Sequence record: MZ648215.1
DNA from: Escherichia phage vB_EcoP_IMEP24
Reading direction: 5' to 3' (one strand)
DNA: 39,577 nt
The translations under genes and the position numbers were made by a program. The notes under the pieces are model-generated. The model saw only the letters and a list, made by a program, of their open reading frames with translations, was not told where the DNA came from and did no database searches. Positions within the stretch are counted from its first letter, which is position 1. Each line of letters opens with the position of its first letter. This document shows positions 10,853 to 12,783 of the stretch, in pieces.

Positions 10853-10902
10853 GGACTATGAGTCCTGTCCCTTTGTTAGCATTTTTGATTAAGGAGTGAC
10901 CA

Positions 10903-11079
10903 ATGGATGGTGTGCCAAGACACATGAGGTATTACGTTGGTAATACTGGGAAGAACCGAAGGTCTAAACTCAAAGAGAGACTAAAGCGGGAAGTACCTGA
11001 TGCTAATCAACGCGCTGCTGTACTTGCTATTATGGAGGAATACGCCATTCTGTATCACCTAAAGTTTACTAAGGAGTGA
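10903..11079 (+). CDS. Hypothetical basic protein (58 aa)
   Basis: Below ORF cutoff; preceded by taaggagtgaccaATG, a 16-bp string repeated exactly at the gene 4 start. Confidence 0.5.
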   Translation: MDGVPRHMRYYVGNTGKNRRSKLKERLKREVPDANQRAAVLAIMEEYAILYHLKFTKE

Positions 11080-11082
11080 CCA

Positions 11083-12783
11083 ATGTCATACGATGACCAA
11101 GACGACGAGAGTGTCTTTCTGTATCACACCCAGTGTCCAGACTGTGGGTCCTCGGATGCCAATGGTGTTTACTCAGATGGGCACATGTACTGCTTCGCCT
11201 GTGACCCTTCAGTCGCATGGAAGAAAGGAGACATGGAGTTGACCGAGGGATACACACCCTCAGGAGGTAGAAAGCAAGTGAGCAATCTGTTAACGTTCGG
11301 TGAGAACGCTGGACGATATGTCCCACTACCAGCCCGTAGTCTCAGCATGGAGATATGCAAGAAGTACAGCTACTGGGTTGGTAACATGGGCGGCAAGATG
11401 GTTCAGGTCGCTGATTATTACGACAGGTCCGGGACCAAGGTAGGGCAGAAAGTCCGAGACGCTGAGAAGAACTTCACGGCTATCGGTAGCGTCAAGTCTG
11501 ACATGTTGTTCGGCTCTCAGCTCTGGAATGGTGGCAAGAAGATAGTCATCACCGAGGGTGAGATAGACGCTCTGTCTGTAGCTCAGGTGCAGGACGGTAA
11601 GTATCCTGTGGTCTCGCTTCCGTTAGGCTCCAAGTCTGCGAAGAAAGCTATGGCTGCGAACCTTGAGTATCTCGACCAGTTCGAAGAGATAATCTTGATG
11701 TTCGACATGGATGAACCGGGTCGTCAGGCAATTGAGGATGCAGCTCCAGTCTTACCAGCAGGTCGGGTTAAGGTTGCGTTCATCAACGGGTACAAAGACG
11801 CAAACGCTGCACTTCAGGCCAAGGACTTCAAGGCCATAACCGATGCTATCTGGAACGCTAAACCTTTCGTCCCGGCTGGAGTGGTATCAGCGGCAAGTCT
11901 GAAGGACCGCACACGAGAGGCAATGCTTAAGGCAGAGACTGAAGGTCTCATGTTCTCGTCATGCACAACACTCAACGCGATGACCTTAGGTGCGCGAGCT
12001 GGTGAGCTTATCATGGTGACTTCAGGTTCAGGCATGGGTAAATCTACCTTCGTTCGTCAGCTCCTCTTAGAGTGGGGCAGAGGAGGTAAACGTGTGGGTA
12101 TGGCTATGCTTGAAGAGGCTGTAGAGGAAACAGTTCAGGACCTTATGGGTCTGGACAATAACGTACGTCTGCGCCAGAGCAAGGAACTGAAGCAAGCCAT
12201 CTTAGATGATGGTCGGTTTGACGAATGGTATGACAAGCTGTTCGGAGACGATAAGTTCCACCTGTACGATTCATTCGCAGAGTCAGAGGAAGACACCTTG
12301 TTCGCTAAGTTAGCCTACATGGTGGATGGTCTCGACTGTGACGTCATACTGCTGGACCACATCTCAATCGTTGTGTCTGGCATGGAAGATAACTCAGATG
12401 AACGTAAGACCATTGACCGCATCATGACTCGTCTCAAGAAGTTTGCGAAGACGAAGGGTGTTGTTGTCGTGGTCATATGTCACCTGAAGAACCCGGAGAA
12501 AGGTAAATCGCATGAAGAAGGACGACCTGTTTCAATCACTGACCTACGTGGTTCTGGTGCTCTCCGTCAACTGTCTGATACTATCATCGCCCTTGAGCGA
12601 AACCAGCAAGGTGATACTCCTAATATTGTTCAACTTCGTCTGCTCAAGTGTCGTTTTACGGGTGACACTGGAGTGGCGGGACACCTTGAGTACAACAAGA
12701 CGACAGGGTGGCTTGAACCGATTAGCTTCACTGGCAGCAGCGGAGAAGAGGATAGCGGCTCGTGGGAAGATACCGACTTCTAA
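11083..12783 (+). CDS. DNA primase/helicase (T7 gene 4)
   Basis: N-terminal Zn finger [17 protein letters not shown], primase [13 protein letters not shown], Walker [37 protein letters not shown]-terminal DTDF; collinear with T7 gp4. Confidence 0.97.

What the first reader, a model, noticed from the sequence alone, without database searches (positions are those of the whole stretch)
10888..11086. Identical 16-bp translation-initiation string duplicated around a 58-aa ORF before gene 4
TAAGGAGTGACCAATG occurs at 10890-10905 and again at 11070-11085, the second copy being the start of the primase-helicase gene. The first copy starts a 58-aa basic ORF that ends exactly where the second copy begins. 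This looks like a gene inserted or duplicated by recombination between initiation regions, giving both genes the same ribosome-binding context.
Basis: seen in the sequence. Interest (0 to 1): 0.45.

Follow-up and report, generated by a model that had tools for sequence, protein, structure and literature searches.

The report
Accessory-gene slot at primase-helicase start
In this T7-family phage a small, conserved 58-codon gene sits exactly on the start signal of the essential primase-helicase gene, bracketed by two identical copies of that signal. Related phages carry nothing, a different small gene, a tRNA or a homing endonuclease at the same spot, so it is a reusable docking site for extra genes: a modest extension of known phage mosaicism.

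Summary
TAAGGAGTGACCAATG occurs exactly twice, at 10890-10905 and 11070-11085, with 0 expected by chance. It is the only identical pair among 56 start regions called in this complete Kayfunavirus genome. The string is the translation-initiation region (TIR) of gene 4 (primase-helicase), about 40 nt downstream of a phage-RNAP promoter.

Most relatives have one copy and no insert. The window and phage P762 carry a 180-bp unit made of ORF58 plus a second TIR. Other relatives carry different cargo at the same nucleotide:
- an unrelated 59-aa ORF, also with a duplicated TIR;
- a tRNA-Thr, with a decayed upstream TIR;
- a T7 gp3.8-like HNH endonuclease, or its remnant.

ORF58 is a genuine gene: dN/dS is 0.06-0.14 and 11 clusters are all 58 aa. 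Its fold is a helical hairpin with no known relatives. Its last two codons (AAG GAG) form gene 4's Shine-Dalgarno, and its TGA stop lies 3 nt before gene 4's ATG.

Both TIR copies stay invariant although synonymous sites are saturated, and mosaic boundaries coincide with them.

Best reading: a promoter-proximal cassette slot filled by CDS-precise illegitimate recombination at start/stop/SD microhomology. Cassettes are then exchanged by homologous recombination and can be lost precisely through the 16-bp repeat. This is a new variant of a known kind, of moderate interest.

The parts
10619..10834 (+). Gene 3.7-like ORF (71 aa), the conserved left neighbour of the slot
   Evidence: ORF; phrog_1950, E 2e-24. 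Present in all relatives upstream of the slot.
10830..10852 (+). Phage-RNA-polymerase promoter (phi4-type), CTAAACTATCACCTTAGGGA. Predicted +1 is near 10847.
   Evidence: Searches find promoter-like copies across the window (8 by pattern search against 0.08 expected; further copies in the repeat families; consensus CTAAACTATCACTATAGGGA). The +1 is assigned by analogy with T7 promoters (inference).
10847..10871 (+). Predicted 5' leader hairpin of the promoter's transcript (11-bp stem, 3-nt loop)
   Evidence: MFE fold of 10847-10930, -26.8 kcal/mol, z = -2.2. The sequence is conserved in relatives.
10890..10905 (+). TIR copy 1: SD TAAGGAG + spacer TGACCA + ATG, now serving ORF58. It corresponds to the single resident gene 4 TIR of empty-site relatives.
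   Evidence: 16-18/18 conserved across divergent relatives.
10903..11079 (+). ORF58: a 58-aa basic protein (pI 10.0, N-terminal half +6.6) with a predicted helical hairpin. It is an ORFan family always found immediately before gene 4.
   Evidence: 11 clusters, all 58 aa; context; dN/dS 0.06-0.14. AF2 pLDDT 76.5; no family or fold match; pI and charge.
10906..11085 (+). The 180-bp presence/absence unit (ORF58 body plus TIR copy 2). It is absent from most relatives.
   Evidence: alignment; span 511 (empty) against 691 (P762).
11070..11085 (+). TIR copy 2: gene 4's working initiation region. AAG GAG are ORF58's last two codons, and TGA (11077-11079) is its stop, 3 nt before gene 4's ATG.
11083..12783 (+). 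Gene 4, primase-helicase (566 aa)
   Evidence: Pfam hits on relatives' products: Helic-prim_T7_N, Toprim_2, DnaB_C. Annotated as primase/helicase in GenBank relatives.

Best explanation
The 16-mer is the translation-initiation region (TIR) of the essential primase-helicase gene. It consists of a 7-nt Shine-Dalgarno (UAAGGAG), a 6-nt spacer and AUG, and it is the first start signal on the transcript of a phage-RNAP promoter about 40 nt upstream.

In Kayfunavirus and its relatives this point works as a docking slot for accessory cargo. A unit of [cargo + second TIR] sits directly after the resident ATG. Three consequences follow:
(a) The cargo, here a conserved 58-aa basic helical protein, inherits gene 4's promoter, leader and TIR.
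(b) Gene 4 keeps an unchanged TIR.
(c) The TIR string supplies the cargo's stop codon. That is TGA for ORF58, 3 nt before gene 4's ATG, and TAA in another frame for the 59-aa ORF. Termination and gene 4 initiation are therefore adjacent, so translational coupling is likely.

Origin (inferred): CDS-precise illegitimate recombination that uses translational punctuation as microhomology. The left junction is ATG. The right junction is stop plus the next gene's SD (TTAAGGAG).

Spread and turnover:
- Alleles are exchanged between co-infecting relatives by homologous recombination, with boundaries at the TIRs (shown as mosaic boundaries).
- The 16-bp direct repeat allows precise loss that regenerates the one-copy empty site seen in most relatives (inferred).
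- ORF58's persistence under purifying selection implies that it is useful. Its molecular role is unknown. My guess is a replication-phase host-takeover or anti-defence factor, or a nucleic-acid-binding factor, co-expressed with gene 4.
For: Shown:
- The exact repeat is unique in the genome.
- Empty sites with one copy occur in most of about 190 related GenBank genomes, including K1F itself.
- Alternative cargo sits at the same nucleotide: a 59-aa ORF with a duplicated TIR in 17 records; tRNA-Thr(CGT) in 35 records, with the upstream copy decayed to TAAGAAATG; an HNH_3 endonuclease starting at the 16-mer's ATG, with its own SD for gene 4 embedded in its 3' end, and a deleted remnant of it; and stacked tRNA plus HNH in phage SH5 (PMC4925675).
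- In a T7-type genome a 121-aa ORF, unscanned here but the same length as T7 gp3.8, starts at CAAGGAGTAACCAATG and overlaps gene 4.
- ORF58 is coding and constrained: dN/dS 0.06-0.14, and 33 of 53 differences fall at third codon positions.
- ORF58 occurs in at least four backbones whose nearest gene 4 relatives are empty or carry other cargo.
- Both TIR copies are 16-18/18 conserved while pS is 0.7-0.87 and neighbouring intergenic TIRs keep only 3-9/18 in the more divergent relatives.
- Mosaic boundaries fall at the TIRs. Window versus P762 is identical from 10888 to 11180, with 5 mismatches in the 33 nt just upstream; synonymous differences are 0/39 in ORF58 against 57/381 in gene 4 (p = 0.005). 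Window versus L009 has a 14% divergent patch bounded exactly by the two TIRs in a 3-5% divergent background; 14/39 against 64/380 (p = 0.008).
- Donor-type context for the 59-aa ORF: homologues in Berlinvirus and Przondovirus lie between genes 4.3 and 4.5, start at ATG and end TGY-ATT-TAA-(A)GGAG.
- A 62% identical homologue of ORF58 lies in a different gene context without the 16-mer pair.
- The insert's GC content is 43.9% against 49.9% for the genome.

From established knowledge (my recollection, not verified here): T7 deletes DNA between short direct repeats at frequencies that rise steeply with repeat length (Studier 1979; Pierce, Kong and Masker 1991, NAR 19:3901).
Against: - No insertion or deletion event was observed directly; the direction of change is inferred from comparison.
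- A 3-nt left microhomology (ATG) amounts to non-homologous joining.
- A two-junction insertion into a single 16-mer needs either two recipient molecules, template switching, or a pre-existing two-copy slot.
- ORF58 alleles are somewhat more divergent than their flanks. That fits long vertical residence with repeated loss as well as, or better than, recurrent insertion.
- The extreme conservation of the spacer is not explained by the model.
- Translational coupling and ORF58's function are untested.
- Only one slot in this genome shows a duplicated TIR, so the generality of the process is unproven.
Confidence: 0.65

Rival explanations
1. Break-repair hotspot driven by the resident homing endonuclease. 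The gp3.8-like HNH enzyme found in this slot in some relatives cleaves near the gene 4 start in HNH-less genomes. Error-prone, microhomology-mediated repair of those breaks captured foreign DNA (ORF58, the 59-aa ORF, the tRNA) and produced the 16-bp duplication.
For: An HNH_3 gene, and a decayed remnant of it, occupy exactly this site. In HNH+ genomes gene 4's first codons are recoded (MSSEEED against MSYDDQDD), as expected near a homing site. Several unrelated cargos cluster at one nucleotide.
Against: The cleavage site of this HNH is unknown. Most genomes with ORF58, the 59-aa ORF or the tRNA have no HNH. The ORF58 arrangement is ancient and conserved rather than a scar. Flanking duplications are not a typical outcome of homing repair.
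Confidence: 0.15
2. Ancestral gene plus loss only. ORF58 with two TIRs was the ancestral state of this phage clade. The identity of the two strings is kept purely by selection for an optimal start signal. All empty sites are independent precise deletions. No insertion by recombination at initiation regions ever took place in these lineages.
For: ORF58 divergence follows backbone divergence in rank order over at least four backbones. Both TIR copies are under strong constraint. An empty site is exactly what a deletion between the repeats would leave.
Against: Two other unrelated cargos, the 59-aa ORF and the tRNA, sit in the same slot. The 59-aa ORF has homologues at another genomic position in other genera and is 100% identical across 17 records, which points to recent gain and spread. 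The spacer identity (TGACCA) still needs an original duplication event. Cassette and flank histories are uncoupled.
Confidence: 0.2
3. Small non-autonomous transposable element (MITE-like) whose insertion created a 16-bp target-site duplication.
For: A direct repeat flanks a presence/absence unit.
Against: There are no terminal inverted repeats at the unit's ends, no other copy in the genome and no transposase. 16 bp is atypically long for a TSD. Three unrelated cargos share the same 'TSD'. The unit is a constrained protein-coding gene whose stop codon lies in the repeat.
Confidence: 0.02
4. Chance, convergence or assembly artefact. Either two strong RBSs happen to be identical, or the assembler duplicated a segment.
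For: Strong SD sequences are common in T7-like phages (one search lists many AAGGAG-type TIRs).
Against: 0 matches are expected by chance. No other TIR pair exceeds 11/13. The same structure occurs in P762 and in independent assemblies from different samples, with sequence-diverged ORF bodies.
Confidence: 0.01

Closest known systems
T7 gene 3.8-type free-standing HNH endonuclease gene immediately upstream of gene 4 (T7; Citrobacter phage SH5 ORF21)
   Same: It uses the same slot. In Kayfunavirus L016/L088 and SH5 the HNH ORF starts at the ATG of the very same 16-mer, and gene 4 follows at once. In SH5 the paper reports that the HNH is missing from the close relatives SH4 and Dev2 (PMC4925675). 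It shows the same presence/absence polymorphism.
   Different: ORF58 is not an endonuclease (no HNH or other Pfam hit). The HNH cassette brings its own, different SD for gene 4 and a recoded gene 4 N-terminus. The ORF58 unit carries an exact copy of the resident TIR and leaves gene 4 unchanged.
PeSL mobile regulatory cassettes of T4-type phages (Arbiol et al. 2010, PMC2839356)
   Same: Short conserved expression signals flank variable ORFan genes. They are proposed to mediate insertion, deletion and replacement by recombination between the repeated signals (abstract read).
   Different: PeSLs are sigma70 promoter plus stem-loop terminator units, present in many copies in hyperplastic regions. 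Here the repeat is a translation-initiation region, present only as one pair at one slot. Transcription comes from a single upstream phage promoter, and no mini-circles are known.
Morons (Hendrix/Juhala concept in lambdoid phages)
   Same: An extra gene lies between two genes that are adjacent in relatives, with slightly deviant base composition (GC 43.9% against 49.9%).
   Different: Morons are autonomous transcription units with their own promoter and terminator. ORF58 has neither and depends on the resident promoter and TIR.
Deletion between short direct repeats in T7 (Studier 1979; Pierce, Kong and Masker 1991; from memory, paper not held)
   Same: A 16-bp direct repeat 180 bp apart in a T7-family genome is the substrate class for which precise deletions were measured. 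The empty site equals the predicted product.
   Different: That work used engineered inserts in non-essential genes. Here the repeat is a functional TIR kept by selection, and deletion has not been observed.
Conserved gene-boundary ('linker') sequences as recombination points in modular phage evolution (Susskind and Botstein model; boundary sequences noted in lambdoid phages; from memory)
   Same: Mosaic junctions coincide with a short conserved sequence at a gene boundary.
   Different: Here the boundary element is duplicated around the cargo and doubles as stop signal, SD and start for two consecutive genes.

Membership tests
PeSL-type mobile regulatory cassette | A conserved regulatory motif repeated at both borders of a variable ORF | tested here: met
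   Two identical 16-mers bracket ORF58, and likewise the 59-aa ORF in F/Vec13-type phages.
PeSL-type mobile regulatory cassette | The motif is a sigma70-type early promoter plus a stem-loop terminator | tested here: not met
   The motif is SD + spacer + ATG. No terminator-like site lies in 10500-11400, and the only sigma70-like hit is on the minus strand at chance level.
PeSL-type mobile regulatory cassette | Many dispersed copies in hyperplastic regions | tested here: not met
   Only 2 matches in the genome even with 2 mismatches, and no other identical TIR pair.
Moron | Inserted between genes that are adjacent in related phages | tested here: met
   Gene 3.7 and gene 4 are adjacent in most relatives.
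Moron | Own promoter and terminator (an autonomous transcription unit) | tested here: not met
   No promoter or terminator lies inside the unit. The only promoter is the resident phage promoter upstream of TIR copy 1.
Free-standing homing endonuclease gene | Encodes a site-specific endonuclease (HNH, GIY-YIG, LAGLIDADG and similar) | tested here: not met
   ORF58 has no Pfam, PHROG-function, PDB or fold match. By contrast the L016 cargo hits HNH_3 at E 3e-18.
Free-standing homing endonuclease gene | Presence/absence at one conserved site among close relatives | tested here: met
Free-standing homing endonuclease gene | Altered (immune) target sequence next to the insert | tested here: not met
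   Gene 4's 5' end next to ORF58 is identical to that of empty-site phages. Recoding is seen only next to the HNH cargo.
Transposon / MITE with target-site duplication | Terminal inverted repeats at the element ends | tested here: not met
   No inverted repeat at the ends of 10906-11069.
Transposon / MITE with target-site duplication | Multiple copies, or copies at unrelated sites | tested here: not met
   There is a single copy in the window. All close homologues (74-100% identity) are at this slot. One distant homologue lies in another ordinary gene context without flanking duplications.
Direct-repeat-mediated deletion substrate (T7 type) | Perfect short direct repeats flanking a dispensable segment, with the deletion product retaining one repeat | tested here: met
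   A 16-bp perfect repeat with 180-bp spacing. Empty sites carry exactly one copy. Dispensability is inferred from the many viable isolates without the unit.
Direct-repeat-mediated deletion substrate (T7 type) | Deletion actually occurs at measurable frequency in this phage | not testable with these tools
   This needs read-level data or passage experiments.
Translationally coupled gene pair | The upstream stop lies within a few nt of the downstream start, and the downstream SD lies inside the upstream coding sequence | tested here: met
   AAG GAG TGA cca ATG. The arrangement is conserved in all ORF58 alleles.
Translationally coupled gene pair | Downstream translation depends on upstream translation | not testable with these tools
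   This needs reporter or ribosome-profiling experiments.

The most novel reading that the evidence does not exclude
The gene 4 start region of Studiervirinae is a recombinase-free 'cassette dock'. Translational punctuation itself (ATG on the left; stop plus Shine-Dalgarno, TTAAGGAG, on the right) serves as the recombination site. Any compactly packed phage CDS can therefore be transplanted whole, is immediately expressed from the resident promoter and TIR, and can later be swapped or excised precisely. The unusually conserved 16-18-nt string would then be maintained partly because it is the shared crossover point. ORF58 would be one of several interchangeable replication-phase accessory factors, for example an anti-defence or host-takeover protein, co-translated with primase-helicase.
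Probability: 0.25. Interest if true: 0.55.

Novelty: new variant of a known kind. Interest (0 to 1): 0.4.

Why it matters
It gives a concrete, nucleotide-resolved example of how very compact lytic phage genomes gain, swap and lose accessory genes without disturbing an essential gene. The incoming gene borrows the essential gene's start signal, and a copy of that signal restarts the essential gene.

The site is directly usable in practice. It is a naturally tolerated insertion point for engineering payloads into K1F/T7-type therapeutic phages. The caveat is that a duplicated 16-bp TIR should make the payload excisable.

It also flags a conserved 58-aa ORFan, expressed with the replication genes, as a candidate host-interaction factor. 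Finally, it raises the question of why this particular start region is far more conserved than its neighbours.

Tried and rejected
1. Generic strong-RBS explanation: rejected. Only this TIR pair is identical among 56, and 0 matches are expected by chance.
2. ORF58 as a diverged duplicate of gene 4's 5' end: rejected. BLASTP gives only a 7-residue match at E 0.15. The 11-nt repeat TTCTGTATCAC (11048/11117) is broken in the other alleles, so it is probably chance.
3. Function by homology: nothing found. PHROGs and Pfam gave no significant hit. The PDB sequence profile gave E about 2 only. Foldseek on BFVD and PDB found nothing below E 2. An exhaustive HMMER search of 1.84 billion representatives found only the family itself, one 62% identical homologue, and two long repetitive proteins that I judge spurious.
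4. tblastn of ORF58 against 50,697 phage records found only P762.
6. Literature searches for TIR-flanked cassettes or this hotspot in T7-like phages found no description of it. Pierce et al. 1991 is not held, so deletion-frequency figures are not quoted.
7. Transposon/MITE reading: rejected. There are no inverted repeats and no extra copies.
8. Insert-mediated immunity to the HNH endonuclease: considered and not pursued. The duplicated TIR restores at least 16-18 nt of the native sequence upstream of gene 4, and SH5 carries the HNH downstream of the tRNA cargo.
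Full report
1. THE OBSERVATION

TAAGGAGTGACCAATG is present at 10890-10905 and 11070-11085 and nowhere else in the window, even allowing two mismatches. No shuffle produced a match. The repeat extends to 21 nt at 90% identity with 180-nt spacing.

Copy 1 ends in the ATG of a 58-aa ORF (10903-11079). Copy 2 ends in the ATG of a 566-aa primase-helicase gene (11083-12783).

One detail of the finding is wrong. The ORF does not stop at the TAA that opens copy 2, because that TAA is out of frame. The ORF reads ACT AAG GAG TGA, so its last two sense codons are gene 4's Shine-Dalgarno and its stop lies in the spacer, 3 nt before gene 4's ATG.

The window is a complete T7-family genome with 184-bp terminal repeats. 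Its closest relatives are Kayfunavirus, the K1F-like phages.

Among 56 start regions I called in the genome, this is the only identical pair. The next best is 11/13, between distant genes. It is therefore not a generic RBS consensus.

2. SURROUNDINGS

About 40 nt upstream of copy 1 lies one copy of the phage-RNAP promoter, which recurs across the window (CTAAACTATCACTATAGGGA; here CTAAACTATCACCTTAGGGA, 10831-10850). It is followed by a predicted 11-bp 5' hairpin. No terminator or host-type promoter lies inside the unit. ORF58 is thus the first cistron of the transcript that also carries gene 4.

3. PRESENCE/ABSENCE AND ALTERNATIVE CARGO

Of about 190-199 related GenBank phage records, only P762 contains the whole 1.1-kb region. 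Most match in two pieces with 180 bp missing.

Alignment shows that the 'empty' site has exactly one copy of the 16-mer, fused directly to gene 4 (MopsHU1, Peacock). A junction-spanning query confirms this for most records, including K1F itself.

The same nucleotide position holds other cargo in other relatives:

(i) An unrelated, acidic and hydrophobic 59-aa ORF (phrog_6794), again bracketed by the same 16-mer. It stops at the TAA of TAAGGAG, in a different frame. It is 100% identical in 17 records, including vB_EcoP_F, Vec13 and Pipis.

(ii) A tRNA-Thr(CGT) in 35 records, including ST31, LM33_P1 and U8. It is followed by an intact 16-mer, but the upstream copy has decayed to TAAGAAATG.

(iii) A 121-aa HNH_3 endonuclease that starts at the 16-mer's ATG. 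It carries a different SD (TAAGGAGG...GTG) for a gene 4 with a recoded N-terminus, embedded in its own 3' end (L016/L088).

(iv) An internally deleted remnant of that HNH gene (L065/L078; a JSS1-type span in GenBank).

(v) tRNA and HNH stacked together in Citrobacter phage SH5. The SH5 paper notes the HNH (54% identical to T7 gp3.8) as missing from the close relatives SH4 and Dev2 (PMC4925675).

In a T7-type genome a 121-aa ORF, the same length as T7 gp3.8 and not itself scanned here, begins at CAAGGAGTAACCAATG and overlaps gene 4 (L105). That suggests the slot and its head TIR are old features of the Studiervirinae.

4. ORF58 IS A REAL GENE AND AN OLD RESIDENT

A search of 5.8 billion proteins found 11 clusters, all exactly 58 aa and 74-100% identical. 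The exhaustive representative search added one 62% identical homologue of 68 aa.

In every contig examined, the 58-aa gene lies directly before gene 4 with the same geometry. Both copies of the string are present.

Pairwise dN/dS is 0.06-0.14, and third-position changes dominate, for example 33 of 53 differences.

ORF58 divergence follows backbone divergence in rank order:
- ORF58 nucleotide identity: 100, 86, 74, 70 and 67%.
- Gene 4 nucleotide identity, same genomes: 96, 96, 84, 82 and 70%.

ORF58-bearing genomes fall into at least four backbones. Their nearest gene 4 relatives are empty or carry other cargo.

Both TIR copies keep 16-18 of 18 positions although synonymous sites are saturated (pS 0.7-0.87). 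By contrast, the intergenic TIRs of gene 3.7 and the DNA polymerase gene keep only 3-9/18 in the more divergent relatives.

The protein is basic (pI 10.0, N-terminal half +6.6). It is predicted to be a helical hairpin (pLDDT 76.5). It has no Pfam, PHROG-function, PDB or fold relatives.

The 62% identical homologue lies in a different gene context: after a 137/156-aa gene with stop/start overlap, and before a gene 3.7-like ORF. It has no 16-mer pair, and it reads through the next gene's SD.

5. EVIDENCE ON MECHANISM

(a) Mosaic boundaries coincide with the TIRs.
- Window versus P762: the sequences are identical from 10888 to 11180, but there are five mismatches in the 33 nt just upstream of copy 1. 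Synonymous differences are 0/39 in ORF58 against 57/381 in gene 4 (p = 0.005).
- Window versus L009: the ORF body is 14% divergent and is bounded exactly by two invariant TIRs, in a 3-5% divergent background. Synonymous differences are 14/39 against 64/380 (p = 0.008).
- Cassette alleles therefore have histories partly uncoupled from their flanks.

(b) Donor-type context for the 59-aa ORF. Its 55-71% identical homologues in Berlinvirus (BA14) and Przondovirus (kpssk3) sit between genes 4.3 and 4.5. They start at ATG and end TGY-ATT-TAA directly abutting the next gene's SD. This gives an 8-nt microhomology (TTAAGGAG) with the gene 4 TIR on the right and ATG on the left. The Kayfunavirus copy is exactly the CDS, start to stop, transplanted.

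(c) The TIR string contains stops in two frames (TAA, TGA), and these are the stops used by the two cargo ORFs. The third frame stops 13 nt into gene 4 (read directly from the sequence).

(d) A second variable gene also diverges immediately after a shared TIR/ATG: the 75-aa gene in the window against the 156-aa gene in P762.

(e) From established knowledge, not verified here: T7 deletes DNA between short direct repeats at a frequency that rises steeply with repeat length. A 16-bp repeat 180 bp apart is such a substrate, and its predicted product equals the observed empty site.

6. INTERPRETATION

Shown:
- A conserved, promoter-proximal TIR heads a slot in which different cargo is found.
- In this window the cargo is a constrained 58-aa gene followed by an exact second TIR.
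- Cassette boundaries and mosaic boundaries coincide with the TIRs.

Inferred:
- Cargo enters by illegitimate, CDS-precise recombination at translational punctuation. Entry could be into a one-copy site, which needs two molecules or template switching. More simply, it could replace the cargo of an existing two-copy slot.
- Cargo spreads among relatives by homologous recombination.
- Cargo is lost precisely by recombination or slippage between the repeats.
- Gene 4 is translationally coupled to ORF58.

ORF58's function remains unknown. Its retention over saturating divergence, despite sitting between deletion-prone repeats, argues that it is selected.

I put about 0.65 on this overall picture. 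The rivals are:
- HNH-induced break-repair capture (0.15).
- Ancestral gene with loss only (0.2; this partly overlaps the main picture).
- A transposon with target-site duplication (0.02).
- Chance or assembly artefact (0.01).

7. COMPARISON AND NOVELTY

The arrangement works like the PeSL regulatory cassettes of T4-type phages (PMC2839356) and like classical 'linker' models of modular phage evolution. It fails PeSL membership, however: the motif is a TIR rather than a promoter-terminator, and there is only one pair.

It is not a moron, because it has no promoter or terminator of its own. It is not a homing endonuclease gene, and it is not a transposon.

The positional equivalent in T7 is gene 3.8.

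I found no paper describing this slot or TIR-duplicated cargo in T7-like phages. That is absence in the searched library only.

Verdict: a real feature and a sensible first-stage interpretation. It is a new variant of a known kind, namely accessory-gene turnover at conserved expression signals, and it is moderately interesting.

Noticed in passing
L056:10055-10133 (phage ST31); also L114 (SH5) and L115 (U8): A tRNA-Thr(CGT) gene occupies the same slot in 35 GenBank Kayfunavirus-like records, and many of them do not annotate it. The TIR copy upstream of it has decayed to TAAGAAATG in all three genomes inspected. That removes both a useless start signal and the deletion-prone direct repeat.
   Followed up: partly
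L016:299-664; L065:5716-5830; L114:443-808: A gp3.8-like HNH endonuclease takes over the gene 4 TIR. It carries a replacement SD/GTG start for a gene 4 with a recoded N-terminus inside its own 3' end. L065 and JSS1-type genomes keep only an internally deleted remnant. SH5 stacks tRNA and HNH in the same slot.
   Followed up: partly
window 10885-10905 and 11065-11085; L005, L008, L009, L011, L105: The gene 4 TIR, including its spacer TGACCA and the upstream TGATT, is 16-18/18 conserved where synonymous sites are saturated and neighbouring intergenic TIRs keep 3-9/18. A near-identical string heads the slot in a T7-type genome. The reason for this extra constraint is unexplained.
   Followed up: partly
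window 9919-10146, compared with L001:777-1247: This is another polymorphic gene. The window and MopsHU1 have a 75-aa ORF where P762 has a 156-aa ORF with an extra N-terminal ~82 aa. The sequences share the TIR and ATG and diverge from codon 2 onward, so the junction is again at the start codon.
   Followed up: partly
window 6081-6123, 13400-13440, 36152-36189: There are three copies of a ~40-nt leader element (TTAGACTCAAGGTCAT ... GTGGCCTTTATGATTA). The first two lie just downstream of phage promoters. They may be RNase III-type processing hairpins.
   Followed up: no
window 1-184 = 39394-39577; 178-293: The window has 184-bp direct terminal repeats, so it is a complete linear genome. Next to the left repeat is a run of 15-bp tandem units (AACCTACAGTCCAAC-like, about 6 copies).
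   Followed up: no
window 11048-11058 and 11117-11127: An exact 11-nt repeat, TTCTGTATCAC, occurs in ORF58's 3' end (..ILYH..) and in gene 4's 5' end (..FLYH..). It is broken in the other ORF58 alleles, so it is probably chance.
   Followed up: partly
L026, L027, L062 (viral contigs), upstream of gene 4: In some relatives the K1F-type promoter in front of the slot is replaced by a T3-like promoter sequence (CACTCACTAAAGGGA), while the downstream TIR stays identical. This suggests a promoter swap at the same locus.
   Followed up: no
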